Origin: an uncultured Candidatus Saccharibacteria bacterium
Lineage (GTDB): Bacteria > Patescibacteriota > Minisyncoccia > Minisyncoccales > CAZJYW01
NCBI GenBank assembly: GCA_964550395.1
Contig: CAZJYW010000001.1
Span: 1-45,659 of the forward strand
Direction of reading: 5' to 3'
DNA length: 45,659 nt
The notes under the pieces are model-generated. The model was not told where the DNA came from and did no database searches. It worked only from the letters and a program-made list of their open reading frames with translations. Position numbers and translations under genes: made by a program. This document shows positions 3,001 to 40,747 of the stretch, in pieces (positions within the stretch are counted from its first letter, which is position 1; each line of letters opens with the position of its first letter).

Positions 3001-6000
3001 GTAGCAGATATTGAATACCGGGTAGATGGAGGTTCCTGGCTAGATGTTGATTCCTTTACTCCAGCTCCCTCTGTTTCTTTTGCCTTTACCCCTTCTCCTT
3101 TAGTTGATGGAACTCATACCTTTGAAGTTAGGGCTCAAGATGAAGCAGGCAATTGGGAACAATCTCCTTATCCCAGTGACACCTTAACTATTGATACTAC
3201 TCCGCCTCTCACCACTATCTCTCCCGATGGAGAAGATTGGGGGAATTCTGATGTTGACTTCACTCTAAGCTGTGACGATGGAACAGGTTCTGGTTGCCAA
3301 ACTACTGAGTACAAGATAATAGACCAGAGTCAAACCTGTGATACTTCTGATTTAATCACTGGGAATTCAGGAACAGTCACCTGCCCAGAGGACCAAACCT
3401 GCCAAAAGAAGGCCTGTTTTAGAAGTATTGATAATCTAAACCAGGAAGAGACAATTAATACCTCAAATCTTTTTAAGGTTGATAAGATAAACCCTTCAGG
3501 AACCCTTGAAGTTAGTCCAGATTCACCAATAGTGGAAGAAGATATTACCATTACCATTAGTGCTAATGATGGAGAAAGTGGAGTTGATTATCTTTTAGCT
3601 GAAGATGACGGAACCTATTTACCGTCTCAAGATTGTGGTGGAGCTGCCATCTGTGATAAGAGCTGGATAGTCCAAGAAACAGTAGCTGGAGACCATACCT
3701 ATTGTGGTTTAATCTATGATTTAGCTGCCAACGTTAACAACACTACTCCTTATTGTATTACTATTACTGTTACTATTTCTGACGATACTCCGCCTTACGT
3801 AGAGGTAATTGCTGATCCTCCTGAAGTAAAAACTACCTGGCAGAATACTGATGCCACCGCTAATGTTTCTTGTTCTGATCCTGATACTTGGACTTGTGGC
3901 GATTCAGTCACCTTCACTTACAAAGGTAGCTCTGTTACTTATGGAACAGTAGAGAGTCAGGGTAAGTGTTGGATGGATAGAAATCTTGGCGCCTCGCGAA
4001 TGGCTTGGTCCTACAATGACTCTTTGGCTTACGGAGATTTGTTCCAGTGGGGCAGATTGGATGATGGTCATCAAACTCGCACCAGTGGTAAAACTACGAC
4101 CCTTTCCAGCACAGATATCCCCGGCCACAGTAATTTCATCTACGTTACGAGCCCCATTTATGACGACTGGAGATCTCCCCGAAATGATAACCTTTGGCAA
4201 GGAGTTTCAGGTACCAACAATCCTTGCCCTTCTGGTTGGCGGATACCTGCTGAGGCAGAGTGGGACACTGAACGAGCCAGCTGGAGCCAGCAGAACTATA
4301 TTGGCGCTTTTGACAGCCCCCTTAAACTTACCGTTGGTGGTTACCGGTATTACAGAGACGCTTCCCTCCACGGTATGGGTAGCTACGGCCAATATTGGGC
4401 TTCCACTGTGGATGGTTCGTACGCTAGCAGCCTGCACTTTCAAAACAACGCTGCCGATACGGATCCCGACCACCGGGCCGTCGGTTTTTCGGTTCGCTGT
4501 ATCAAAGATTCAGATTCAGATTTAGGCTGTGATTCAGCATCTTACAGGTTAAAAACCTATACTGTAAACCCTGGGACTTGTTCAACTAACTATGCCGATT
4601 ATACTTTAGCTTCTCCCCAGACTGTTTCTTCTTATCAATGGCTTTGCGGAACAGCCAAGGATTTAGTTGGCAATGCTGGCTTCTCCAGCCCAGTAGAATT
4701 TAAGGTTGACAAGATTAATCCTTCAGGAGCTTTAACTGTTAGCCCGGAGAATCCAATCATTGGCCAAGATATTACCATTACCATTGTTGGCCAGGATGGA
4801 GAAAGTGGAGTAGGTGATGTTTTAGCTAAAGATGATGATGATTGGTTAATAACAAAAAATTGTGGAGGAACTTCTCCTTGTAATAAAAATTGGGTAGTCC
4901 AGGAGACAGCAGCTGGAGACCATACCTATTGTGGTTTAGTTTATGATGTGGCTGATAGCTACTTTTATACCAATTGTAAGACAATAACGGTAACTACTAC
5001 TGGACTTGTTTGCGATGTAAATGTTCAGAATAATACGGCGGTTGTAAATCAATGGATTTCAATTAATGTTTCTGGCTCTCAGGGAGCGATAGCCGAAGTC
5101 CGTTTTACTAGTAATTTGATTGGTGAGCCTGCTGGCAGCTGGACTGATTGGTATGGCTGGGATGTTTCTTCTGGTGATTGGGATGCCAGTTTCAAGATAA
5201 TGAAATGGAGTTTTGCTGAAACAGGAAATTACGAAGTCTGGGTAGAATTAAAAGATGGAAGTGGCAACACCCAGGCTTGCTATGACACAATTTTAATTAT
5301 GGAGTGTTATCCCGGCCAGACAAAAACCTGTACTTCCTTCCAAGATTGTAGTCATACAATAACTTGCCAACCAAACGGGACCTGGCCTTCTTGTCCAGAA
5401 GACCAATGCGTATCTGGAACCACTCAATCTTGTGGAGTAAATGGACTTCAAACCTGCATTGATACCTGTACCTGGGGACCTTGTGTTACCCCGCCACCTG
5501 ACGGTGATGGCTGTCCTTGGCCACCAGATATTAGTTGTGATATTTGCTGGAAACCGGTATGTAATACCGAAACTGATGAGTGGGAATGTCAGCCTGATCT
5601 TGATGCGGCCGGGACCGACTGCGGTGATTGTTTAATGTGTGATAACAGCGGAAATTGCAGTATCCCTCTTTGTTCAGGGATTGCCGAAAGTTGTGAATGT
5701 ATTCCGGGTTCTCCAGATTCCTGCAAAGATTGTTCTGATTATGGAATTGAATGCGGTTATAAAGAAGGACCTTGTTATTGCGGTCAATACGAATATCCAA
5801 TTTGGAGTTGCGATGAGGGAGAATGCCAATGTTACTGTCAGGAGGATGAAACCGGTGAAATCTGTCCAAGCGAGCCGCCTGAAGAATGTGAGTATAGTCC
5901 ACCTATTGTCAGCATAGTTCCGGACTATCGAGAGGGAGCAGCGGGCGACCGTTTAACTTATACCGTTTCGGTTATCAATCAGGATGAGGGAGTGGAATGT

Positions 6001-10112: not shown

Positions 10113-11864
10113 ATGAAAGTAGACCCGGGACAACTAAGAGCCTTTCTTTTAGACGCTGGTTTAGTAACCGAGAAACAATTTGACGAGGCTCAAAAAAAAG
10201 CAGAGGAAACCAAACAAAAAGTTGGTGATGTTTTGATTTCTGAAGGCCTAATTTCCCAAGAAGAACTAATTAAACTCGAAGCCTATATTTTGGGAATTCC
10301 TTTTGTAGATTTAGAAAAAGAAATTGTTCCGCCGGAAGCTCTGAAAATTATTCCTGAACCCATTGCTCGTTCTCATAATATCGTTGCTTTCAGAAAAAAG
10401 GGAAACGATTTAGAGGTAGCCATGTTAGATCCTGAAGACTTAAGAACAATTGAGTTTATTAAAAAGAAGGAACCTGGATTAAAAATTTTACCAAGGCTAA
10501 CTACTCCGGAATCAATCAAAAATGTCTTAAGACAATATCAAAAAACTCTTGAGGCTGAGTTTGGAGAAATTATCAAAAAAGAAGCTAAGGGGATTAAAAT
10601 TATCAGTGAAAAGGGAGTAGTAGAAGAAAAAGAGGAACTTAAAAAAATAGCTGGGGAGATTCCAATAATCAGGATTGTTGATACTTTAATGAAGCACGCC
10701 ATTTTAGAGAGAGCTTCCGACATCCATATTGAACCCCTGGAAAAAGAAGTAATAGTTAGATATCGAATTGATGGAATTTTGCATGATACGATGACTTTGC
10801 CCAAAACAGCGGCTTCTGGAATTGTAGCCAGGATAAAGGTTTTATCAAATTTAAAATTAGACGAACATCGACTTCCCCAAGATGGAAGATTTAAAATTGA
10901 AACTGAGGAATATCGATATTCGATTCGAGTTTCAATTTTACCAGTTTTTGATGGAGAAAAAATTGTGATGCGGCTTTTATCTGAGACCTCTAAAGCCCAT
11001 ACCTTAGAAGGCTTAGGTTTTATGGGAGATGCTTTGGAAAGAGTTCAGGACAATTTAAGAAAGCCAGTAGGGATGATTTTAATAACTGGACCTACTGGCT
11101 GCGGGAAAACTACCACTCTTTATGCCATGATGGAAATTTTGAATATTCCTGGAGTAAATATTTCTACAGTAGAAGACCCAGTTGAATACCGAATGCCCAG
11201 AATTAATCAAACTCAGGTTAGACCAAAAATTGGATTAACTTTTGCCTCAGGGCTTAGAGCTTTGGTTAGACAAGACCCAGATATTATTATGGTGGGGGAA
11301 ATTAGAGATAATGAAACAGCTGGTTTAGCTATTAATGCTGCCTTAACCGGTCACTTAGTTTTGTCTACTTTACACACTACTGATGCGGCTGGGGCCATTC
11401 CTAGATTGATTGACATGAAAGCCGAGCCATTTTTAATTTCCTCCACTTTAAATTTAATTTTAGCCCAGCGATTAGTGAGACGGTTTTGCAACGAAAAAGA
11501 AAAATATACTTTAACTGATTCTGAAATAAAAAATTTAAAAAAATATTGCGACCCAGACAGAATTCTGAAGATTCTAAAGGAGGAAAAAATAATAAAACCA
11601 AAAGAAAGTTTCCGAGACATCGGATTCTATCGGCCCAAACCATCTAAAGAATGTCCTGAGGGATATAAGGGCAGAATTGGAATTTACGAATCCTTACCAG
11701 TTACTGAAACCATCAAGGAATTAATTGTTAAAAGAGCAACTTCTTACCAAATCACCGCTCAAGCCCAAAAAGAGGGAATGAGAGCTATGATTGAAGATGG
11801 TTTCGTTAAGGCAGCCCAAGGGATAACCAGTATTGAGGAGGTATTAAGAGTAATCATTGAATAG
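10113..11864 (+). CDS. pilB: Type IV pilus assembly ATPase PilB (GspE family)
   Basis: N-terminal T2SSE_N-like domain, Walker A GPTGCGKTTT, GspE-type Asp and His boxes (MVGEIRD, TGHLVLSTLHT). Confidence 0.92.
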   Translation: MKVDPGQLRAFLLDAGLVTEKQFDEAQKKAEETKQKVGDVLISEGLISQEELIKLEAYILGIPFVDLEKEIVPPEALKIIPEPIARSHNIVAFRKKGNDLEVAMLDPEDLRTIEFIKKKEPGLKILPRLTTPESIKNVLRQYQKTLEAEFGEIIKKEAKGIKIISEKGVVEEKEELKKIAGEIPIIRIVDTLMKHAILERASDIHIEPLEKEVIVRYRIDGILHDTMTLPKTAASGIVARIKVLSNLKLDEHRLPQDGRFKIETEEYRYSIRVSILPVFDGEKIVMRLLSETSKAHTLEGLGFMGDALERVQDNLRKPVGMILITGPTGCGKTTTLYAMMEILNIPGVNISTVEDPVEYRMPRINQTQVRPKIGLTFASGLRALVRQDPDIIMVGEIRDNETAGLAINAALTGHLVLSTLHTTDAAGAIPRLIDMKAEPFLISSTLNLILAQRLVRRFCNEKEKYTLTDSEIKNLKKYCDPDRILKILKEEKIIKPKESFRDIGFYRPKPSKECPEGYKGRIGIYESLPVTETIKELIVKRATSYQITAQAQKEGMRAMIEDGFVKAAQGITSIEEVLRVIIE

Positions 11865-11929
11865 CCGAGCCACCGAAGGTGGCGAAGGCTGGAGATGAAG
11901 GCAAACCCGAAGGGGCAAACTTCATCGAC
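11864..11929 (+). repeat. GC-rich two-hairpin repeat element, copy A (pilB-pilC intergenic)
   Basis: GCCGAGCCACCGAAGGTGGCGAAGGCTGGAGATGAAGG...CTTCATCGAC. Hairpin 1 is GCCACC-GAA-GGTGGC and hairpin 2 has the stem GATGAAG/CTTCATC. It matches 38578-38630 and the reverse complement of 24243-24301. Confidence 0.85.
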
Positions 11930-11933
11930 TAAA

Positions 11934-13151
11934 ATGCCACGCTATTTTTATACTGCCAAATCTCTTAAGGGGGAAAGTAAAACCGGTAGTTTAGTGGCCA
12001 AAAATGAGCCCCAATTAGCAAAAAAACTGCGAGAACAGGGTTTTCTTTTAATTAAAGCTAAAACTGAAAAAGAAACTAAGAAAAGAAAATTAGAAATCTC
12101 CCTTCCCTTTTTTGGAGGGGTTTCTTTAACTGAGAAAATATTTTTCATTAGAAATTTACGGGTAATGCTATCCTCAGGTCTTTCCTTGCCCCGAGCCCTC
12201 CATATTTTAGCTGACCAATCGAAAAGTAAGAAGTTTAAAAGCGCTTTATTAGATATCAGAGAAGAAATTACTAAAGGAAAAAGTTTTTCTGAATCATTAA
12301 GTAAATATCCTAATATTTTCTCTGAACTTTTTTTTAACATGGTAAAAGTAGGGGAGGAAGCCGGAACCTTAGAGGAAGTTTTAAAAATCCTCTCTGAACA
12401 GATGGAGAGAGAGCACGAACTATTATCAGAAATAAAAGGGGCATTGATTTACCCAGCAGTAATTATAGTGGCAATGATTGGGATTGGAATTTTAATGCTG
12501 GTGATGGTTGTTCCCCAATTAGCCGCAACTTTTGAAGAGCTAAATGTTGAACTTCCCGCTACTACCAAATTAGTAATTGGTTTAGGTGCTTTTTTAGTTG
12601 AGAAATTGTACTTAGTTATTTTAATCTTTATTTTTCTTATCTTTATTTTCTTGAGAGTGCAAAAGACAAAAAATGGGAAAGCAGCCATAGATGCTCTTTT
12701 ATTAAAAATCCCCATTATTTCTCCAATTATCAGAAAAACTAATTCGGCCTCTACGGTTAGAACTTTAAGTTCTCTCATTTCTTCGGGGGTGCCCATTGTT
12801 AGGTCTTTGGAAATTATTTCTGGAACTTTAAGTAATATTTATTTTAAGGAAGCGATGAAGGAAGCAGCTAAAAAGGTTAGAAAGGGAGAAAAATTGTCTG
12901 AGGCTCTTAAACCTTATCAAAATATTTATCCTTTGATTGTTATTCAAATGATTGCGGTAGGAGAGGAAACTGGTGAAACTTCCAACATTTTAGCCAAATT
13001 AGCTGCTTTTTTTGAAGAAGAAGTAAGGAGAATTACTAAAAATTTAACGGCAGTCATTGAACCAGTAATAATGTTAATCATTGGAGCAGCAGTTGGTTTT
13101 TTTGCCATCTCCATGGTTCAGCCAATGTATAGTATGCTGGGAGGACTATAA
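11934..13151 (+). CDS. pilC: Type IV pilus platform protein PilC (GspF family)
   Basis: Two GspF repeats and three TM segments. The ORF-track start at 11895 lies inside the repeat element, so the ATG at 11934 (MPRYFYTAKS) is more plausible. Confidence 0.88.
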   Translation: MPRYFYTAKSLKGESKTGSLVAKNEPQLAKKLREQGFLLIKAKTEKETKKRKLEISLPFFGGVSLTEKIFFIRNLRVMLSSGLSLPRALHILADQSKSKKFKSALLDIREEITKGKSFSESLSKYPNIFSELFFNMVKVGEEAGTLEEVLKILSEQMEREHELLSEIKGALIYPAVIIVAMIGIGILMLVMVVPQLAATFEELNVELPATTKLVIGLGAFLVEKLYLVILIFIFLIFIFLRVQKTKNGKAAIDALLLKIPIISPIIRKTNSASTVRTLSSLISSGVPIVRSLEIISGTLSNIYFKEAMKEAAKKVRKGEKLSEALKPYQNIYPLIVIQMIAVGEETGETSNILAKLAAFFEEEVRRITKNLTAVIEPVIMLIIGAAVGFFAISMVQPMYSMLGGL

Positions 13152-23251: not shown

Positions 23252-24749
23252 CCATGGGAAAACGGCTCTCCTGGACCAGATTAGAAAAACCCACGTTGCA
23301 GAAAAAGAAACTGGCGGCATTACCCAGCATATCGGAGCTTATCAAATTGTTGAAGGTGATAAAAAAATAACTTTTATTGATACTCCTGGTCACGAAGCCT
23401 TTTCGGCAATGCGCTCCCGAGGTAGCAAAATAGCTGACTTGGCTATTTTAGTAGTGGATTCCTCGGAAGGAGTAAAAGCTCAAACTAAAGAGGCGATTTC
23501 TCATATTAAAAAATCAGGAATTCCAATAATTGTTGCCTTAAACAAAATTGATAAACCCGAAGCTAATCCAGAAAAAGCTAAAAGGGAACTGGCTCAGGAA
23601 GATGTTGTGGTTGAATCGCTGGACGGGAAAACTCCTTCAATTGAAATTTCGGCTCTCACTGGCCAGGGAATTCCTGAGCTCTTAGAATTGATATTATTAG
23701 TGGCCGAAATGGAAAATTTGAAAGTAGAGCTTATTAAGAAAGCGGAAGGAGTAGTAATCGAATCTTATTTAGACCGTTTAAGAGGGCCAACGGCTACTTT
23801 GCTCATTACCGAGGGAGTTTTAAAACAAGGTGATATTTTGGGTACTTTTTCTACCTTTGGGAAAATAAAAAAATTAGAAAACTTTCAAGGTTGCTCTATT
23901 GAAAAAGCCTTGCCTTCAGATCCGGCTGTTGTCATCGGGTTTGAAGATGTTCCTAAAGTTGGGGAAAATTTTAAAGTTTTTCCGGATTTGGAAACGGCTA
24001 AAAACTATCTTAAAATCCCAGCAAAAAAAGCTCCTGAAGTTTTATCCCCCACCGAGGTTCCTCTGGCAGAGGGCATAGACCAAAAGGTTTTAAATCTAAT
24101 TTTAAAAACCGACGTTTTTGGCTCAATTGAAGCCATTGAGGAAGTTTTAAATAATCTTCCCCAAGAGAGAGTGGTTTTAAGAATTTTAAAATCGGAAGCA
24201 GGGGAGATAAATGAGGGGGACATTAAGTTAATTAAAGGGGGTCGGGAGTCGATGAGGGCGAGGTCTTCATCTCCACCTTCGCTACCTTCGGTGGCTCGGT
24301 CATTAATTTTTGGCTTCCGGGTAAAAATCAATCCAACAGCCAAAATACTAGCCGAAAGAGAGAAAATTAAAATAATGACCTTTGACGTAATTTATGATTT
24401 AGTGGAGGGAGTTCGCAAATTTATGGAAAAAGAGCTTCGACCAGAGAAGGTTCGAACCGATTTGGGGAAAGTTAAAACTTCAGCAATTTTTCTTATAGAA
24501 AAAAATCGCCAGATTGTTGGAGGAAAAGTGATTGAAGGAGAAGTTAAAAAAGGAGCTTCGATTGAAATTTTTCGGGAAGAAAACCTTATTGGTAAAGGGA
24601 AGTTGGTCAATCTCCAGAAAAACAAAAAAGATGTCGATAGAGTTCCGAAAGGGGAGGAGTGCGGACTCCTTTACGAAGGTGATACCAGAATTGAAGAGGG
24701 GGATACATTAGCGATTTATCAAGAAGAAAGAAGGAAGAGTGAGCTGTAA
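23163..24749 (+). CDS. infB: Translation initiation factor IF-2 (short N-terminus) carrying an in-frame repeat insertion
   Basis: G-domain motifs GHIDHGKT, DTPGH and NKID. The C-terminal beta-barrel domains are present. An extra 20 aa (RESMRARSSSPPSLPSVARS) is encoded at 24243-24301. Confidence 0.92.
   Translation: MPKTTKKNLTRLTARQVTRPPVVVVLGHIDHGKTALLDQIRKTHVAEKETGGITQHIGAYQIVEGDKKITFIDTPGHEAFSAMRSRGSKIADLAILVVDSSEGVKAQTKEAISHIKKSGIPIIVALNKIDKPEANPEKAKRELAQEDVVVESLDGKTPSIEISALTGQGIPELLELILLVAEMENLKVELIKKAEGVVIESYLDRLRGPTATLLITEGVLKQGDILGTFSTFGKIKKLENFQGCSIEKALPSDPAVVIGFEDVPKVGENFKVFPDLETAKNYLKIPAKKAPEVLSPTEVPLAEGIDQKVLNLILKTDVFGSIEAIEEVLNNLPQERVVLRILKSEAGEINEGDIKLIKGGRESMRARSSSPPSLPSVARSLIFGFRVKINPTAKILAEREKIKIMTFDVIYDLVEGVRKFMEKELRPEKVRTDLGKVKTSAIFLIEKNRQIVGGKVIEGEVKKGASIEIFREENLIGKGKLVNLQKNKKDVDRVPKGEECGLLYEGDTRIEEGDTLAIYQEERRKSEL
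24243..24301 (-). repeat. GC-rich two-hairpin repeat element, copy C, in frame inside infB (inverted orientation)
   Basis: GTCGATGAGGGCGAGGTCTTCATCTCCACCTTCGCTACCTTCGGTGGCTCGGTC is the reverse complement of the element at 38578-38630, with a few substitutions. Confidence 0.85.
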
Positions 24750-24751
24750 AA

Positions 24752-25093
24752 ATGTCTAAGCGTATTCAACGGGTCAATCAATTAATAAAAAAGGAGATAT
24801 CCCAAATTCTTTTGCGAGAAGTAGAATTTAATTCGGGGGTTTTAATAACCGTGACTAGAGTAGAGAGTGCGGTTGACCTAAGTCAGGCTAAAATTTATAT
24901 AAGCTGTCTGCCCGAAGAGAAAACTTCAAAAGTTTTTCAAATCTTGAATCGACAGATTTATGAATTACAAAAAAAATTGAATCATCGTTTGCGAATGAGG
25001 CCAATCCCCCGAATTAAATTTATCGAAGAGAAAGAAACTAAAGAGGCGGGCCGGGTCGAAGAAATTTTAGAAAAGCTGAAATTAAAGAAATAA
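24752..25093 (+). CDS. rbfA: Ribosome-binding factor A
   Basis: 113 aa. N-terminal RIQRVNQLIKKEISQIL is typical of RbfA. The gene directly follows infB, which is the conserved order. Confidence 0.88.
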   Translation: MSKRIQRVNQLIKKEISQILLREVEFNSGVLITVTRVESAVDLSQAKIYISCLPEEKTSKVFQILNRQIYELQKKLNHRLRMRPIPRIKFIEEKETKEAGRVEEILEKLKLKK

Positions 25094-25095
25094 AT

Positions 25096-25136
25096 TTCTT
25101 CTCCACCTTCGCCCCACTGTGGCGGGGATCGGTAAT
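25096..25136 (-). repeat. Partial or variant copy (D) of the two-hairpin element, just after the rbfA stop
   Basis: TCTCCACCTTCGCC is shared with copy C, followed by a different GC-rich segment (CCACTGTGGCGGGGATCGG). Confidence 0.55.
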
Positions 25137-32855: not shown

Positions 32856-35372
32856 ATGGCTAAAGACCCCAATCCAAAAAACAGGGAAATTGGTTACGTC
32901 AAACCGCGGGAAATCACCGAAGAGATGAGGGATTCTTACATTGATTATGCCATGTCGGTGATTATCTCCCGGGCTTTACCCGATGTCAGAGATGGATTGA
33001 AACCGGTTCACCGTCGGATTTTGTATGCGATGCATGAAATGGGATTAAAACACGATGCCAAGTTTAGAAAATCAGCAACGGTAGTAGGAGAGACATTGGG
33101 AAAATATCATCCTCACGGCGATCAATCTGTTTATGATGCCGCGATAAGAATGGCACAAGATTTTTCATTGAGATACCTTTTGATACAGGGTCAAGGAAAC
33201 GTAGGGTCAGTCGATGATCCAAGCGAGTTTGCGGCTATGCGATATACAGAAATGAGAATGTCGAAAATTGGTGAAGAAATGTTAAAAGACATTGAAAAAA
33301 ATACAGTTGATTTTGTTGACAATTATGATGGAACCAGGAAAGAACCCACTGTTTTGCCCTCTCCCTTTCCCCAACTTTTATTAAATGGCTCTCTGGGAAT
33401 TGCTGTTGGCATGGCCACCAATATTCCTCCTCATAATCTTTCGGAAACTTGCGATGCCGCCATTTATTTAATTGACCACCCCAGAGCCGCCACAGAAGAT
33501 TTACTAAAATTTATTAAAGGCCCTGACTTCCCAACTGGCGGAGAAATTTTTAATCAAAAAGAAATAATTCAAGCCTATTCTCAAGGAAAGGGGCCAATTA
33601 TCACCCGGGGTAAGGCCGAAATCACCGAGGACAAAAAAGGCAGACTCCAAATTATGATTACGGAAATTCCCTATCAAGTTCAAAAGTCTTCTTTAGTTGA
33701 GCAATTGGCTAACTTAGTTCAAGAAAAAAAGATTGAAGGAATAAAAGACATTAGAGATGAATCAGATAAAGAGGGGATGAGAATTGTTATTGATTTACAG
33801 CGGGAGGCCATAGCCCAGAAAATTTTAAACCGGCTTTACAAATTTACTGACCTCCAAAAAACTTTCCATTTGAACATGTTGGCCATAGTGGAAGGAATCC
33901 AGCCTCGGGTTTTAAACTTAACCGAACTCTTAAATTATTATCTTTTACATCGAAAAGAAGTAATATATCTGAGAACAAAGTATGACTTGGAGAAAGCCAA
34001 AGAAAGAGCTCATATTTTAGAAGGATTAGATAAATGCCTGGCGAATATCGATGCCGTAATTAGAACAATTAAACAATCGGATAACCGGGAGGAAGCTCAA
34101 AAAAACTTAATAAAAAGGTTTAAATTAACTCAAATTCAGGCTAATGCCGTTTTAGAAACAAAACTTTCAGCCTTAGCCAAATTAGAGAGGAAAAAGATTG
34201 AAGATGAATTAAAAGCGCTCCGTATTAAAATTAAAGAATTAACCGCGATTTTAAAGAGCCCTCAAAAAATAAAAGAAGTGGTTAAGAAAGAGTTGAAAGA
34301 AATAAAAGAAAATTTTGGCGATGAAAGAAGAACCAAAGTCCGTCTCCAAAAAGTGGGCGAAATTGCTGAAGAAGATTTGATTCCCCAAGAGGAAACTATT
34401 ATTACTTTAACTCAAGGAGGTTATATCAAAAGATTAAACCCGGCTACTTATAAAATTCAAAAAAGAGGAGGAAAAGGAATTTTAGGAATGAAAACGGTCG
34501 GAGAAGATATTGTCGAGCACTTTCTAACCGCTAACACTCACGACTCTCTGCTTCTTTTTAGTGATTCGGGAAAAGTTTTTAGAACTCCAGTTTACGAAAT
34601 TCCCGAAGGAACTAGAGTAGCCAAGGGAAGAGGTCTTTTAAATTTTCTAGAAATTTCTTCTCAAGAGAAAATCTTATCTCTGATGTCCTTAGGGAAAGCC
34701 GACCAGGGTTTTATCAAATATTTAGTAATTGCCACCAAAGATGGTATAATCAAAAAAACAGCCCTTGAAGAATTTGAAAATGTGAGAAGGTCAGGTTTAA
34801 TTGCCATCACTCTTAAAAAGGGGGATGCCTTAAGGAAAGTTTCAAGAACCACCGGTGAGGATGAAATTATTTTAGTGACTAAAAAAGGTCAGTCTGTCCG
34901 CTTCAAGGAAAAAGAAATAAGGCCGATGGGAAGAGCGGCAGCCGGAATTAGAGGAATCAAGCTTAAAAAAGCTGATGAAGTGGTCGGGATGGACGTTGTT
35001 GACGTTAAACGTCAACAGGGGAAAAAACAATATCTATTAGTTGTAACGGAAAATGGGTTTGGGAAGAGGACGGATTTAAAAGAATATAGACTTCAGGGTA
35101 GGGGAGGTTCGGGGATTAAAACTGTTCAAGTTGCCCCCAAAACCGGAGATTTAGTAGCTTCAAAAGTTTTAACTACCCGAGCATTAGCGAAGGGTGAAAA
35201 TGAAGCCAAGGCTTCATTGCCTACCGAAGAAGATTTAATTGTTATTTCTCAAAAAGGTCAGGTGATAAGGGCGGCAATTTCTAGTATCTCCAAACTTTCC
35301 CGGGTTACCCAAGGAGTAAGAATAATGAAATTAGGAGAGGGAGACCAGGTAGCTTCAGCCACCTGTATCTAA
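32856..35372 (+). CDS. gyrA: DNA gyrase subunit A
   Basis: [12 protein letters not shown]...[31 protein letters not shown], active-site context AAMRYTE, and a C-terminal beta-pinwheel with repeated G.GKR/RGG.G motifs. The start is set at the ATG at 32856, not the upstream in-frame extension. Confidence 0.93.
34998..35016. repeat. 19-bp palindrome inside the gyrA C-terminal domain
   Basis: GTTGACGTT-A-AACGTCAAC, encoding VDVKRQQ. Confidence 0.65.
35176..35222 (+). repeat. Degenerate partial copy (E) of the two-hairpin element, in frame in gyrA
   Basis: CCGAGCATTAGCGAAGGGTGAAAATGAAGCCAAGGCTTCATTGCC aligns with CCGAGC...GCGAAGGCTGGAGATGAAG...CTTCATCGAC of copy A. It lacks hairpin 1 and keeps the hairpin ATGAAGCC-AA-GGCTTCAT. 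Confidence 0.5.
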
Positions 35373-37829: not shown

Positions 37830-38561
37830 TTAATTAATTTTACAAATACTTTTCATTTTTTTCAACCTTTTGAATCCCAAGGAAACAAAGAGGGCCAAAC
37901 TAATCAAGATAATAATAGGAATTAAGAATCTCAGGCTTCCCTCAATTTCCATAATAGAAAAATTATAAAGTCCATGCAAGAGGCAGGCTATTCCCAAGCC
38001 GACAGCTAAGAGCGATATCCGGTTTTTTGTTTCGGAAAAAGATAGAGCCAGAAAGAGACCTACGGTTCCTGAACATAAGGCATGTAAAAAGGTTGCTCCT
38101 AAAAACCTGGCAACCGTAATCGAAAAAGCTTCTCCGAGTAAAAAGGTTGGACCGAGAGTGATTAAAATCAAAATGTTTTCTAAAGCGGCAAAACCCAGAG
38201 CGGCAATTATCATATAAAGCAAGGCATCGGTTGGTTCATCAAATTCGGCACTCTTCAGTACTTTTTCTTTCACCACTAGATATTTTAGAACCTCTTCAAC
38301 CAGAGCTACTCCGATCAAAGCATTAAAAATAATAATTAAAAAGGGAGAGAGGAGATTAGATAATGGTGGGTGCAAGGTGCTCTCAAAAATTCCCTTTTCT
38401 AAGAAAACCGCTGGGATGGCAGCCAACATTCCATAAAAGAAAATTTTTATTACCTGGGAATTAGGTTCAGGATGAACATCTTTTCTCAAATAAAACAAAA
38501 GCCAGATTAGGCTGGGCAGAACTCCAAAAAAAATATAAAGAGGATAACTCATTTGGGCCAT
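37830..38561 (-). CDS. prsW: PrsW-family intramembrane metalloprotease
   Basis: Multi-TM protein with the PrsW motifs VEEVLKY, GFAALEN and HALCSG. Its stop is 1 nt from the hsp20 start. Confidence 0.8.
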   Translation of the reverse strand: MAQMSYPLYIFFGVLPSLIWLLFYLRKDVHPEPNSQVIKIFFYGMLAAIPAVFLEKGIFESTLHPPLSNLLSPFLIIIFNALIGVALVEEVLKYLVVKEKVLKSAEFDEPTDALLYMIIAALGFAALENILILITLGPTFLLGEAFSITVARFLGATFLHALCSGTVGLFLALSFSETKNRISLLAVGLGIACLLHGLYNFSIMEIEGSLRFLIPIIILISLALFVSLGFKRLKKMKSICKIN

Positions 38562-38577
38562 TTTTCAATCATTAAAC

Positions 38578-38630
38578 GCCGAGCCACCGAAGGTGGCGAA
38601 GGTGGAGATGAGGGACTCGCCCTCATCGAC
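38578..38630 (+). repeat. GC-rich two-hairpin repeat element, copy B (valS-prsW intergenic)
   Basis: GCCGAGCCACCGAAGGTGGCGAAGGTGGAGATGAGGGACTCGCCCTCATCGAC. Its last base is part of the valS stop codon. Confidence 0.85.
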
Positions 38631-40747
38631 TATTTGGGCCATTCCTCGATCATCAGGCATTTCTTTTTATTCTCTATTGGTAATTTTTGATAGATTTCTT
38701 CAGTGATGAAAGGCATGAATGGATGCAAAAGTTTTTGAGAAGTTAGTAATACATATAATAGAACTTTCTCTGTATTTTCTTTTTCAGTTTTGGATTTTGG
38801 ATTTTGGATTTTGGATTTCGATGATTCAATATAAACATCGCAGAAGTCATGCCAGAAAAAATTATAGAGGATATGGGCGGCCTGGCCGAACTGAAAACCT
38901 CCCAAATTTTTATTAACTGATTTTATTGTTTTATCTAAGGCTCGAAGAATTCTTTTATCAGCCAATGTTAACTTTGAGCCAGAGCACAAAATCTTTGTGC
39001 TCGGCCGAGCACTCAACCCTATTTGAGTACTCTGGTTTTGCATCATTACAAATCGGCTAGCATTCCAAATCTTGTTACAGAACTTCTTTCCCATAACTAT
39101 ATTGTCTTCAGTAAATCTAATATCCTGTCCTCCCATAATTTGCCAGGCTATCCCAAATCGGGTAGCATCGGCTCCATATTTTTCAATGAGATTTATCGGG
39201 TCTACTCCGGTACCAAGAGATTTTGACATTCTTTCCCCCTCTTTGGTTAAAACAGTAGCATGGACATAGACCTCTCGAAATGGCTCTTTTTTCATAAATT
39301 CCATCCCGGAAAATATCATCCTGGCTACCCAGAGATTTATAATTCCTCGGTCAGTACTCAGAACATTGGTTGGATAAAACCTTTTTAAGTCTTTGGTTTT
39401 TTGGGGCCAACCAAGGGTGGCAAATGGCCAGAGAGCAGAGGAAAACCAGGTATCCAGAACATCGTTCACGCCTTTTAAGGGTATTTTATGACCCCACCAG
39501 ATTTGTCTGGAAATGCACCAATCTCTGATGTTCTTTAACCAGTCAAAGTAGATTTTTTCCCACCTTTTGGGAATAAATTTTATCCGGCCTAATTTAACAG
39601 CCTTGATAGATTTTTTAGCCAGTTTATCCATTTTTAAAAACCACTGCTTAGAGGGAATCAATTCAACCGTTGTGTTGCAGCGGTAACATTTAGGAACTTG
39701 ATGATTGTACTCCTCAACTTTTTCTAAAAGTCCTAATTTTTCCAAATCTTCAACCACTTTTTGTCTAACCTCCAAAACCTTTAAGCCCCGGTATGGCAGA
39801 GGAGAATTTTTAGTCATTCTGCCGTTTTCATCAATTACTTTAACTGAACCTAATTTATGCCGGAGACCAATTTCGTAGTCGGTCAAATCGTGGGCTGGAG
39901 TAATTTTAACAGCGCCAGTGCCAAATTTTGGGTCAACTAATCCATCAGCCACGATAGGAATTTTTTTATTGACTAAAGGCAAAGTAACTTTTTTACCGAT
40001 TAATTTTTTATATCTTTTGTCGCCGGGATTAACGGCAACCGCCGTGTCTCCCAGCATGGTTTCGGGTCTGGTGGTGGCAACAGTTATAAAAGGAGGATAT
40101 TTTATATACCAAAGATGACCCTTTTCTTCTTTATATTCTAATTCTAGGTCTGATAAAGAGGTGGCGCACCTTGAACACCAATTGATTACTCTTTCTCCTT
40201 GATAAATCCAGCCTTTTTTGTAGTAATGTAAAAAGGCAGCTTCCACTGCTCGGATATAATCTTTGTCCATGGTAAAACGGGCTCTCGACCAATCAAACGA
40301 AGCGCCTAATTTTTTAAATTGATTTAAAATTATATTTTCGTATTGATCCATCCAGTCCCACATTGTTTTAATAAACTTTTCTTTACCTAAATCAAACCTT
40401 GTTTTACCTTCTTTTTTTAATTTTTTCTCTACTTTGTTTTGGGCAGAGATGCCGGCATGGTCGGTGCCGGGCAGCCATAAAGTTTTAAATCCCTGAAGTT
40501 TTTTCCAGCGGATTAAAATATCCTGAACAGTGACATTTAAAGCATGGCCCATATGAAGCTCACCAGTAATATTTGGGGGAGGGATAACAATACAATAAGG
40601 CTTTTTATGACGTTTAGGAAGCTTATCAGGATTAAAAAAACCAGACTTTCGCCAGAGATTGTAAGTTTTATTTTCCACCTTTTTCGGATTATAAGCCTTC
40701 GGAAGTTTCATATATCTTATTCTATCAACTGACTTGCCTTTTTTCAA
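38630..40747 (-). CDS. valS: Valine--tRNA ligase (short form lacking the long C-terminal coiled coil)
   Basis: HIGH-type motif PPNITGELHMGHAL, KMSKS-type RMSKSLG, CP1 editing domain and anticodon-binding helices. The likely start is the internal ATG at 40711 (MKLPKAYNP). Confidence 0.92.
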   Translation of the reverse strand: MKKGKSVDRIRYMKLPKAYNPKKVENKTYNLWRKSGFFNPDKLPKRHKKPYCIVIPPPNITGELHMGHALNVTVQDILIRWKKLQGFKTLWLPGTDHAGISAQNKVEKKLKKEGKTRFDLGKEKFIKTMWDWMDQYENIILNQFKKLGASFDWSRARFTMDKDYIRAVEAAFLHYYKKGWIYQGERVINWCSRCATSLSDLELEYKEEKGHLWYIKYPPFITVATTRPETMLGDTAVAVNPGDKRYKKLIGKKVTLPLVNKKIPIVADGLVDPKFGTGAVKITPAHDLTDYEIGLRHKLGSVKVIDENGRMTKNSPLPYRGLKVLEVRQKVVEDLEKLGLLEKVEEYNHQVPKCYRCNTTVELIPSKQWFLKMDKLAKKSIKAVKLGRIKFIPKRWEKIYFDWLKNIRDWCISRQIWWGHKIPLKGVNDVLDTWFSSALWPFATLGWPQKTKDLKRFYPTNVLSTDRGIINLWVARMIFSGMEFMKKEPFREVYVHATVLTKEGERMSKSLGTGVDPINLIEKYGADATRFGIAWQIMGGQDIRFTEDNIVMGKKFCNKIWNASRFVMMQNQSTQIGLSARPSTKILCSGSKLTLADKRILRALDKTIKSVNKNLGGFQFGQAAHILYNFFWHDFCDVYIESSKSKIQNPKSKTEKENTEKVLLYVLLTSQKLLHPFMPFITEEIYQKLPIENKKKCLMIEEWPK
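38787..38817. repeat. Heptanucleotide tandem repeat (GGATTTT, about 4 units) inside valS
   Basis: GTTTTGGATTTTGGATTTTGGATTTTGGATTT, encoding SKSKIQNPKSK on the minus strand. Confidence 0.8.
38978..39035. repeat. Double GAGCAC-type hairpin block, in frame inside valS
   Basis: GAGCACAAA-ATC-TTTGTGCTC (38982-39002), then CGAGCACTCAA-CCCTAT-TTGAGTACTCTG. The block encodes the QSTQIGLSARPSTKILCSGSK loop. Confidence 0.65.

What the first reader, a model, noticed from the sequence alone, without database searches (positions are those of the whole stretch)
38578..38630. Second intergenic copy of the two-hairpin element, antisense to the local transcription and overlapping the valS stop
GCCGAGCCACCGAAGGTGGCGAAGGTGGAGATGAGGGACTCGCCCTCATCGAC fills almost the entire valS-prsW spacer. 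Its final base forms part of the valS TAG stop. Both flanking genes are on the minus strand, so here the element is antisense to the transcript, whereas copy A is sense. This independence from orientation argues for a DNA-level mobile repeat or an orientation-neutral hairpin, not a gene-specific leader.
Basis: seen in the sequence. Interest (0 to 1): 0.6.

Follow-up and report, generated by a model that had tools for sequence, protein, structure and literature searches.

The report
Conserved mobile hairpin element after valS
The GC-rich two-hairpin sequence between valS and prsW is one copy of a small mobile DNA repeat family found in some Nealsonbacteria (tiny candidate-phyla-radiation bacteria), and unlike most copies it has been kept almost unchanged in at least four lineages, so the host probably now uses it.

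Summary
38578-38630 is exactly as quoted, folds into two hairpins closed by a short third helix, and supplies the G (probably the AG) of valS's TAG stop.

It belongs to a family of about 56-58 copies in this 461-kb genome. Five related Ca. Nealsonbacteria genomes carry 50-90 copies each, and about 27 of 41 same-order genomes carry none.

The family shows no strict orientation bias to transcription or replication. It is enriched between genes but also sits in frame inside genes. It inserts just 3' of a T-rich, G-poor motif without target duplication. Most sites differ between genomes.

New for this copy:
- It is old, sitting at the same site in four lineages.
- It came with a 30-nt duplication of valS's last ten codons, which resolved an ancestral valS/prsW overlap.
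- It is 85-100% identical between lineages whose valS four-fold sites are saturated (33-51%), and one stem pair changed compensatorily.

I infer domestication as an intercistronic hairpin that uncouples valS and prsW. That function is untested. No transposase partner (TnpA, TnpB, IS110) tracks the family.

The parts
38579..38629 (+). Insert proper, 51 nt (CCGAGCC...CATCGA; in valS sense TCGATGA...GGCTCGG). The covariance-model match is 38577-38631.
   Evidence: Boundaries come from comparison with empty sites in relatives and with contigs in runs X1/X20/X22. CM R1 scores it 73.7 bits, E=6e-16.
38583..38597 (+). Hairpin 1: GCCACC-GAA-GGTGGC. It is 100% conserved in all four orthologous copies.
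38607..38627 (+). Hairpin 2: GATGAGGG-ACTCG-CCCTCATC. It shows a compensatory G-C (G000) versus A-T (G026, G030, L222) pair, and the loop varies freely.
38577..38604 (+). Helix P1 (C-GCC with GGT-G) closing the GA/GAA internal loop and hairpin 1. It covaries across the family (ACC/GGT, ATC/GAT, AGCC/GGCT, ACCC/GGGT, ACGC/GTGT).
38630..38632 (-). valS stop codon TAG. Its G (and probably AG) is contributed by the element's conserved ...CGAC-T-A end.
38630..38659 (-). Upstream repeat copy: the working last ten codons of valS (CLMIEEWPK*).
38549..38578 (-). Downstream repeat copy (CGTTTAATGATTGAAAAATGGCCCAAATGA = RLMIEKWPK* in the valS frame). It is identical to the genuine valS 3' end of relatives. 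It contains an ATG mini-ORF (38572-38549, MIEKWPK*) and overlaps the prsW start codons (ATG at 38561-38559 and at 38552-38550).
37830..38561 (-). PrsW-family intramembrane protease gene, downstream of the element.
   Evidence: PF13367, E=2e-31
38630..40747 (-). valS (valyl-tRNA synthetase), upstream of the element.
   Evidence: PF00133, E=4e-128
11863..11930 (+). Copy A of the same subfamily (pilB/pilC spacer, sense orientation), with a longer hairpin 2.
24247..24301 (-). Copy C, in frame inside infB (adds 18 codons relative to G030). Its hairpin 2 looks like the uncompensated intermediate of copy B.
35174..35222 (+). Further family copy, in frame in gyrA (45 nt absent in G030).
25054..25134 (-). 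Further, weaker family copy in the spacer after 24752-25093.

Best explanation
Copy B belongs to an apparently undescribed family of 45-66-nt GC-rich DNA repeats in AT-rich Ca. Nealsonbacteria and allied Parcubacteria genomes.

Structure. Each copy forms three helices. P1 closes a GA/GAA internal loop and hairpin 1, and hairpin 2 follows. The unpaired motifs CCGAG, CGAAGG and CGAC are conserved.

Behaviour. The family spreads as DNA. It inserts immediately 3' of a T-rich, G-poor motif (TCATY-n-A-n-TA) without target duplication and in either orientation. It survives mainly in spacers, and in frame in genes where it adds Ser/Glu/Lys-rich loops.

History of copy B. It inserted long ago into the valS/prsW overlap, together with a 30-nt duplication of valS's last ten codons. 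valS therefore kept its C-terminus and gained an element-supplied TAG, and prsW kept its start region.

Fate of copy B. It has since been held nearly invariant in at least four lineages, so I infer that it was domesticated. The most likely role is a stable intercistronic stem-loop on the valS-prsW transcript. Such a stem-loop would protect the valS 3' end and/or attenuate and uncouple prsW expression, as intercistronic REP elements do in E. coli.

Shown: family membership, structure, mobility and site turnover, target preference, the duplication, and purifying selection on this copy. Inferred: the RNA-level function and the enzyme that moves the family.
For: Family and structure:
- 56 nhmmer copies in this genome against 0 in the reversed-genome control, and 58 copies by CM.
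- In the seed alignment, 94% of cells pair, 10 of 17 pairs change on both sides, and 0 of 500 shuffles reach the observed values.
- Across 88 copies, 97% of cells pair against 43-57% in slid controls.

Distribution: 50-90 copies in each of G000, G018, G026, G030 and G039, a few in four other genomes, and none in about 27 same-order genomes. Named hits are Ca. Nealsonbacteria and Parcubacteria.

Mobility:
- 33 of 39 mappable G000 sites are empty in G030, often with clean 45-55-nt differences.
- G026 has four identical dispersed copies with unrelated flanks.
- The median nearest dispersed sibling in G030 is 91% identical.

Target motif: it appears in the left-flank logo and already exists in the empty alleles. 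Target duplication is absent in general.

Orientation neutrality.

Copy B specifically:
- The same site, orientation, subfamily sequence and flank duplication occur in G000, G026, G030 and metagenome contig L222.
- Element identity between lineages is 85-98%, against 33-51% at valS four-fold sites (p<=1e-11).
- One stem pair changed compensatorily.
- In G030 the best sibling of this copy is only 76% identical, and G026's own burst subfamily is different, so local homogenisation does not explain the conservation.
- Flanks show normal synonymous divergence right up to the junction.
- The other five shared sites are far less conserved.
- Empty junctions in relatives show the ancestral valS/prsW overlap.
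Against: - No RNA data exist for this organism, so the stabiliser/attenuator role is untested.
- The element is dispensable. G039, G007, G018 and a closer relative (about 86% nt identity) in runs X20/X22 lack it.
- The single-gene ValRS tree is unresolved, so one gain with several losses cannot be distinguished from other histories.
- No mobilising enzyme was identified. Y1 TnpA, TnpB and IS110 do not co-occur with the family.
- Stems are strand-symmetric (G-T 26 vs A-C 19), which gives no positive sign that the RNA rather than the DNA is the selected form.
- Gene maps were made with a simple greedy ORF caller.
Confidence: 0.62

Rival explanations
1. The family is a non-autonomous derivative of an IS200/IS605-type or REP/RAYT-type system. 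Single-stranded hairpin ends would be recognised by a HUH Y1 transposase, cut next to a short guide-matched target, and pasted 3' of that target without duplication. This concerns only how the family moves, and it is compatible with the main explanation.
For: - Hairpins lie near both ends.
- Insertion is 3' of a conserved short motif that belongs to the target, with no target duplication.
- The right end reads ...CGAC-TA(C), whose reverse complement (G)TAG-TCG resembles the GTAG tag of REPs (REP tag definition from the abstract of PMC3733652).
- Y1_Tnp genes do exist in this bacterial order.
Against: - Y1_Tnp is absent from G000 (58 copies), G018 (88 copies, 100% complete) and G039 (53 copies). 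It is present in 16 of 32 genomes that carry fewer than four copies, most of them none.
- TnpB is also absent.
- There is no lagging/leading-strand bias in the closed genome G030 (40:50, p=0.34), whereas ssDNA transposition is expected to be strand-biased.
- 42% of copies are intragenic.
Confidence: 0.2
2. The family is a structured functional RNA (cis-regulatory motif or small RNA), and copy B is simply one conserved RNA gene or motif, not mobile DNA.
For: - Three helices with abundant covariation and conserved unpaired nucleotides.
- Strong conservation of copy B across lineages.
- On the mRNA-sense strand a closing helix between the valS end and the duplicate is predicted.
Against: - Copies occur in both orientations relative to transcription and inside coding sequences in all six frames.
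- G-U pairs are not favoured over A-C mismatches.
- Sites turn over between genomes, with clean presence/absence.
- There is no Rfam match at the gathering threshold or at E<=1.
Confidence: 0.1
3. Copy B is an ordinary Rho-independent terminator of valS, and the family is a terminator family.
For: - It is a GC-rich hairpin directly after a stop codon.
- There is a mild excess of one orientation (antisense to the arbitrarily chosen forward strand) downstream of genes (41:21).
Against: - There is no T-run after either hairpin on either strand, and the terminator scan does not call it.
- 42% of copies are inside genes.
- Divergent spacers are populated about as densely as convergent ones (0.62 vs 0.80 per kb).
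- prsW lies directly downstream and, in relatives, is translationally coupled to valS.
Confidence: 0.05
4. Copy B is a neutral relic. Its similarity between genomes would reflect recent exchange of the segment or concerted evolution with sibling copies, not selection.
For: - These bacteria carry type IV pilus/competence-like genes, so DNA exchange is conceivable.
- The ValRS tree is unresolved.
Against: - Flanking codons differ at synonymous sites right up to the junction.
- G030 has no other copy of this subfamily (best sibling 76%), and G026's own burst subfamily differs.
- The one stem difference is compensated.
Confidence: 0.06

Closest known systems
REP / REPIN elements (repetitive extragenic palindromes, GTAG- or CGTC-tagged; mobilised by RAYT Y1 transposases)
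   Same: Both are short GC-rich palindromic repeats at tens to hundreds of copies, mostly between genes. Both have conserved nucleotides beside a variable stem. Individual copies are known to act as intercistronic mRNA stabilisers (own knowledge: the malE-malF REP of E. coli). The right end of this element partly resembles the tag (TAG-TCG).
   Different: This element has two different hairpins plus a closing helix (45-66 nt). 42% of copies are inside genes. No RAYT gene is present in three of the five copy-rich genomes. The full GTAG tag is present only in a minority of copies.
Rickettsia palindromic elements (RPE)
   Same: Both are selfish palindromic repeats in a reduced genome that are tolerated in frame inside essential genes (here infB, gyrA, and valS in G026) as well as between genes.
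   Different: RPEs are about 150 bp and encode one conserved peptide (PMC10969869). Here the elements are 45-66 nt, are translated in all six frame/orientation combinations, are GC-rich in an AT-rich genome, and occur in an unrelated phylum.
IS200/IS605-derived miniature elements (PATEs, e.g. cyanobacterial Nezha; own knowledge)
   Same: Both have subterminal hairpins, insert 3' of a short specific target sequence, and have no target-site duplication and no terminal inverted repeats.
   Different: No cognate TnpA or TnpB co-occurs with the family, and there is no replication-strand bias.
Classical prokaryotic MITEs (Correia/NEMIS, ERIC, RUP)
   Same: Both are small, non-coding, multi-copy, fold into stem-loops, and can supply stop codons or regulatory hairpins to neighbouring genes.
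   Different: This family has no terminal inverted repeats and no target-site duplications, and it is GC-rich rather than AT-rich (definition from PMC10969869; tests).
G+C-rich clusters of yeast mitochondrial DNA and the 'byp' elements of Magnusiomyces mitochondria (own knowledge, not checked here)
   Same: Both are short GC-rich hairpin-forming mobile islands in a very AT-rich genome. Both are found as single elements and tandem arrays, with preferred AT-rich targets, and sometimes inside coding sequence.
   Different: These are organellar and of unrelated sequence. Byps are skipped by the ribosome, whereas here the intragenic copies keep the frame open and are presumably translated.

Membership tests
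Classical MITE | Terminal inverted repeats of about 4-30 bp | tested here: not met
   The consensus ends are (A)CCGAGC... and ...TCGAC(T), which are not reverse complements of each other (logos; copies listed).
Classical MITE | Flanking direct repeats from target-site duplication | tested here: not met
   Only 2 of 32 testable full-length copies have flanking repeats above chance (copy B and a tandem array). Empty alleles show clean insertion without duplication.
Classical MITE | Length under 500 bp, multi-copy, no coding capacity of its own | tested here: met
   45-66 nt long, 56-58 copies.
REP / REPIN-RAYT | A RAYT (Y1_Tnp, PF01797) gene in the genomes that carry the repeats | tested here: not met
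   No match in G000, G018 or G039, and no correlation across the 41 genomes.
REP / REPIN-RAYT | A GTAG or CGTC tetranucleotide at one end of a 20-40 bp palindrome | tested here: inconclusive
   The reverse complement of the right end is TAG-(T/G)C. The leading G is present in only 24 of 92 copies.
REP / REPIN-RAYT | Extragenic location | tested here: not met
   24 of 56 copies (G000) and 39 of 90 copies (G030) lie inside ORFs.
Rickettsia palindromic elements | About 100-150 bp, encoding one conserved peptide in a fixed frame | tested here: not met
   The elements are 45-66 nt, and all six frame/orientation combinations are used with different peptides.
Rickettsia palindromic elements | In-frame insertion into unrelated protein-coding genes | tested here: met
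   infB +54 nt, gyrA +45 nt, and others at 44-48 nt relative to G030. G026 valS carries an in-frame copy.
IS200/IS605-derived miniature element | Insertion 3' of a short specific target without duplication | tested here: met
   The left-flank motif belongs to the target and is present in the empty alleles.
IS200/IS605-derived miniature element | Cognate TnpA (Y1) and/or TnpB in the genome | tested here: not met
IS200/IS605-derived miniature element | Orientation bias with respect to replication (lagging-strand template) | tested here: not met
   40 leading: 50 lagging in the closed genome G030, p=0.34.
Intrinsic (Rho-independent) terminator | GC-rich hairpin followed by a T/U run, oriented with transcription | tested here: not met
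   There is no T-run and the scan does not call it. Orientations are mixed and many copies are intragenic.
Any Rfam RNA family | Covariance-model match at the gathering score | tested here: not met
   Only tRNAs are found in the window at gathering. The permissive scan of 38520-38680 gives only E>1 noise.

The most novel reading that the evidence does not exclude
The conserved valS-TAG / element / duplicated-C-terminus unit may be a recoding or coupling device rather than a mere hairpin. In all four lineages the frame after TAG stays open through the 51-nt element (SM[R/K]xSPSSPPSPPSVAR) and through a duplicate that still encodes LM(I/V)ExWPK. The duplicate's substitutions look codon-like. The mRNA-sense fold places the UAG and the mini-ORF AUG in a closing helix of a three-way junction. 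The stable hairpin directly 3' of UAG could therefore promote partial read-through to a ValRS isoform with a 27-residue tail. Alternatively, the mini-ORF could mediate termination-reinitiation onto prsW.
Probability: 0.07. Interest if true: 0.8.

Novelty: new variant of a known kind. Interest (0 to 1): 0.55.

Why it matters
Candidate-phyla-radiation bacteria have some of the smallest and most streamlined genomes known. Even so, some Nealsonbacteria carry 50-90 copies of a tiny GC-rich hairpin element, which is about 0.6% of the genome.

The element moves without any recognisable transposase. It chooses a short target, leaves no duplication, and is tolerated inside essential genes. That extends the REP / RPE / IS200-like world of miniature selfish DNA to a new phylum and suggests a mobilisation route that is not yet understood.

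Copy B adds a clean natural example of the next step. An insertion resolved a gene overlap, donated a stop codon, and was then frozen by selection, including a compensatory stem change, while sibling copies came and went. Such copies are good entry points for studying post-transcriptional control in organisms that cannot yet be manipulated genetically.

Practically, the family can mislead gene callers (false starts, split or extended ORFs). It can also serve as a strain or lineage marker in metagenomes.

Tried and rejected
1. A hand-written motif-plus-hairpin regex gave 866 hits and was useless. I replaced it with nhmmer and a covariance model.
2. Flanking target-site duplications as a general property: rejected.
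3. Y1 TnpA, TnpB and IS110 as partners: no co-occurrence.
4. Replication-strand bias: none.
5. Intrinsic terminator: no T-run.
6. Rfam at gathering and permissive thresholds: nothing.
7. G-U versus A-C asymmetry to pick the functional strand: symmetric, so uninformative.
8. A ValRS tree to decide single gain versus multiple gains: unresolved polytomy.
9. RNA runs: none available. The DNA runs are assembler contigs only. They did reveal an empty site in a related strain, but they cannot show rare variants.
10. The metagenome junction scan was mostly chance hits. Only 3 of the 80 loci examined were true junctions.
11. Covariation of the upstream TCATY motif with hairpin 2 (alternative pairing): the association is largely explained by tandem or composite copies, and the motif proved to be target DNA.
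12. TAG reassignment or a suppressor tRNA: none found.
13. The "stops inside valS" flagged for G026, G039 and G013 lie upstream of the true starts and are not caused by elements.

Full report
OBSERVATION

The quoted 53-nt string occurs once, at 38578-38630 on the + strand, and never in shuffled sequence. It is a roughly 65% GC island in a 37% GC genome. It folds into two hairpins:
- Hairpin 1: 38583-38597, GCCACC-GAA-GGTGGC.
- Hairpin 2: 38607-38627, GATGAGGG-ACTCG-CCCTCATC.

A short third helix (38577/8-38580 with 38601-38604) closes hairpin 1 through a GA/GAA internal loop. The fold is -31 kcal/mol with z = -3.9 on the + strand and z = -2.6 on the - strand.

The neighbours are valS (38630-40747, -) and a PrsW-family protease gene (37830-38561, -). 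The valS TAG occupies 38632-38630, so the last quoted base is the G of the stop. Copy A (11863-11930, +) lies between the + strand pilB- and pilC-like genes, so the two copies do differ in orientation relative to transcription. A third close copy (24247-24301, - strand) lies in frame inside infB.

THE FAMILY

A profile built from curated copies finds 56 copies at E<0.01 in the 461-kb genome and none in the reversed genome. A covariance model finds 58.

The consensus is (A)CC-GAGC-[hairpin 1, variable, often a C(GAA)G triloop]-GCGAAGG(T)G-RAGA(T/A)GA[hairpin 2]-CGAC(T).

All three helices covary:
- In a 10-sequence seed, 94% of cells pair, 10 of 17 pairs change on both sides, and 0 of 500 shuffles reach the observed values.
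- In 88 model-aligned copies, 97% pair against 43-57% when partners are slid. That alignment is fitted to the model, so it leans towards the structure.

Stems are 95% strict Watson-Crick, and G-T (26) is no commoner than A-C (19). The constraint is therefore strand-symmetric, as expected for a DNA palindrome or a hairpin that works in either orientation.

No Rfam family matches.

DISTRIBUTION

Among 41 genomes of the same order:
- Five carry 50-90 copies: G000 58, G026 78, G030 90, G039 53, G018 88.
- Four carry 4-17 copies.
- The rest carry none or 1-2 weak hits.

Named genomes with multiple exact core matches are Ca. Nealsonbacteria and other Parcubacteria MAGs. G030 is CP179888.1. Single hits in high-GC genomes look like chance. 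I found no description of such repeats in Patescibacteria in the paper library.

I used a greedy ORF map, which is crude but adequate in an AT-rich genome. The closed genome G030 was fetched whole, with its origin near 294 kb and terminus near 30 kb by GC skew.

Orientation relative to transcription:
- Between co-directional genes: 16 antisense : 7 sense (G000) and 25:14 (G030). Pooled this is 41:21, p=0.015.
- Inside genes: 34 antisense : 29 sense.

Orientation relative to replication in G030: 40 leading: 50 lagging, p=0.34.

Location:
- Copies are strongly enriched in spacers: 51 of 90 lie in 9.2% of the genome.
- Density is similar in co-directional (0.93/kb), convergent (0.80/kb) and divergent (0.62/kb) spacers.

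When a copy touches a gene's 3' end, it is always the ...TCATCGACTA end read antisense. The reason is that TAGTCGATGA offers TAG and TGA in two frames. That explains the "overlap with the stop". Copy B has no T-run and is not called terminator-like.

MOBILITY AND TARGET

I anchored each G000 copy on G030 with flanking protein segments.
- 39 sites are mappable. Only 6 also carry an element in G030, and 33 are empty.
- Many differ by clean gaps of 45-55 nt. Examples are infB 54, gyrA 45, and others at 44-48.
- G026 has four identical copies at unrelated loci.
- In G030 the median nearest dispersed sibling is 91% identical.

Flanks show no general target duplication. Ten bases upstream of the element carry a weak motif (T-C-A-T-Y-n-A-n-T-A, with G nearly excluded), whereas the right flank is random. 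In empty alleles this motif is already present, so it is the target and not part of the element.

Intragenic copies use all six frame/orientation combinations and add Ser/Glu/Lys-rich peptides.

No Y1 TnpA, TnpB or IS110 transposase co-occurs with the family.

WHAT IS SPECIAL ABOUT COPY B

1. It is flanked by a direct repeat. Comparison with relatives shows that the downstream copy (38549-38578, CGTTTAATGATTGAAAAATGGCCCAAATGA) is the original valS 3' end. Contigs of related strains carry GGGCCATTTTTCAATCATTAAAC continuous with the valS body. The upstream copy (38630-38659) is the end valS now uses. The insert proper is 51 nt (38579-38629).

2. In 13 of the 16 valS-prsW junctions recovered from 20 relatives (plus G000's own), there is no element, and valS's ...E-x-WP(K/R)* end abuts or overlaps the prsW ATG. 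In G018, for example, the prsW ATG lies inside valS's last codons. A strain about 86% identical in the flanks, seen in runs X20/X22, also has an empty, overlapping junction. The insertion plus duplication therefore resolved a gene overlap while preserving both genes.

3. The same insertion occurs in G026, G030 and metagenome contig L222. It has the same point, orientation, duplication and atypical subfamily sequence.

4. It is under strong constraint.
   - The 52 nt compared are 85-98% identical among G000, G026 and G030, and 52/52 between G026 and L222.
   - valS four-fold degenerate sites between the same genomes are saturated at 33-51% (p<=1e-11).
   - The differences are loop substitutions plus one compensated stem pair (GAGGG/CCCTC versus GAAGG/CCTTC).
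   - Synonymous differences occur in the flanks right up to the junction, so this is not recent exchange of the segment.
   - In G030 this is the only copy of its subfamily (best sibling 76%), and G026's own burst subfamily is different. Homogenisation by siblings is therefore excluded.
   - The other five sites shared by G000 and G030 are much less conserved.

5. Copy C in infB has the G000-type 3' arm (CCCTCATC) but the ancestral-type 5' arm (GATGAAG-). It folds poorly (z = -0.45). It looks like a copy taken from the B lineage between the two halves of the compensatory change. If so, B has served as a source copy, and structure is maintained in B but not in C. This is an inference.

HOW IT MOST LIKELY WORKS

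Shown: copy B is an old member of a mobile hairpin family, and host-level selection maintains its sequence and pairing.

Inferred: it acts on the valS-prsW transcript as a stable intercistronic stem-loop. Such a structure would end translational coupling, protect the valS 3' end and/or damp prsW expression, as intercistronic REPs do in E. coli operons (own knowledge).

The ValRS tree is an unresolved polytomy. I therefore cannot count gains and losses. Loss by recombination between the flanking 30-nt repeats would regenerate exactly the empty junction seen in relatives.

SPECULATIVE LEAD

In all four carriers the frame after TAG stays open through the element and the duplicate. The duplicate still encodes LM(I/V)ExWPK with codon-like substitutions, and it also forms an ATG mini-ORF ending at or near the prsW start. 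RNAalifold on the mRNA strand adds a closing helix between the valS end and the duplicate. That helix rests on four sequences and one single-sided change, so it is weak.

There is no suppressor tRNA, and TAG is an ordinary stop here. Read-through or reinitiation is therefore only a low-probability possibility.

COMPARISON WITH KNOWN KINDS

The family works like REP/REPIN, RPE and IS200/IS605-derived miniature elements, but it fails defining tests of each:
- It has no TIRs and no TSDs (against classical MITEs).
- It has no RAYT, and it is not extragenic (against REP).
- It is too short and has no single conserved peptide (against RPE; definitions from PMC10969869).
- It has no TnpA or TnpB and no strand bias (against IS200/IS605).

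I file it as a new variant of the known kind "miniature hairpin mobile repeats". Copy B is a domesticated instance.

Earlier notes of this scan on the sister copies reached the same family-level reading. I checked the points I rely on independently, and I add the duplication, the orthologous conservation and the target-motif evidence.

Noticed in passing
G000 contig C2:100-400 (outside the window): A tandem array of at least two element copies, each followed by the same 24-nt flank (CCTACCATGCTTTAATCATTATAC). The flank contains a TATAAT box and the ATG region of a signal-peptidase-like gene, and an N gap interrupts the array. This is a second case of element plus flank duplication.
   Followed up: partly
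window 24247-24301: The infB copy has the 3' arm of copy B's hairpin 2 but the ancestral 5' arm, and it folds poorly. It looks like a frozen intermediate of B's compensatory change, which suggests that B was its source.
   Followed up: partly
L060 (G026:C71) 3157-3212: G026's valS carries a second, sense-oriented, in-frame copy about 170 nt before its stop (ORF 728 aa versus 694-706 aa in relatives), in addition to the junction copy.
   Followed up: partly
L058 (G039:C7), spacer after valS: G039 has a 57-nt AT-rich spacer with ATTCGTA repeats in place of the element. The same ATTCGTAATTCGTAG motif flanks element copies on G000 contigs C32 and C35. Other relatives have AAAACT or GAAATTA tandem repeats in this spacer.
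   Followed up: no
window 38781-38815: A tandem heptamer (TTTTGGA, about 4.5 copies) lies inside valS coding sequence (the ...SKSKIQNPKSK... segment). The region is variable among relatives. It also tripped the read laying filter.
   Followed up: no
L306-L309 (G026 contigs C24, C55, C26, C36): Four dispersed copies are identical over about 52 nt (ACCGAGCTTCCGAAGGAAGCGAAGGTGAAGATGAGAACGAAGTTCTCATCGCC) with unrelated flanks. This points to a recent burst in G026.
   Followed up: partly
window 38549-38659, minus strand (alignment A5): A predicted closing helix pairs GGCC...UAGUC at the valS end with GAUUG...GGCC in the duplicate. It would enclose both hairpins in a three-way junction that contains the UAG and the mini-ORF AUG. 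Only four sequences support it.
   Followed up: partly
G030 (CP179888.1) 114900-115097, 410084-410181, 443582-443674: Head-to-tail tandem arrays of 2-4 element copies show local amplification in addition to dispersal.
   Followed up: no
window 11895-11933: The ORF caller starts pilC at an ATG inside copy A (GGAGATGAAGG mimics a Shine-Dalgarno sequence plus ATG). The real start is more likely the ATG at 11934, so the element can mislead gene calling.
   Followed up: no
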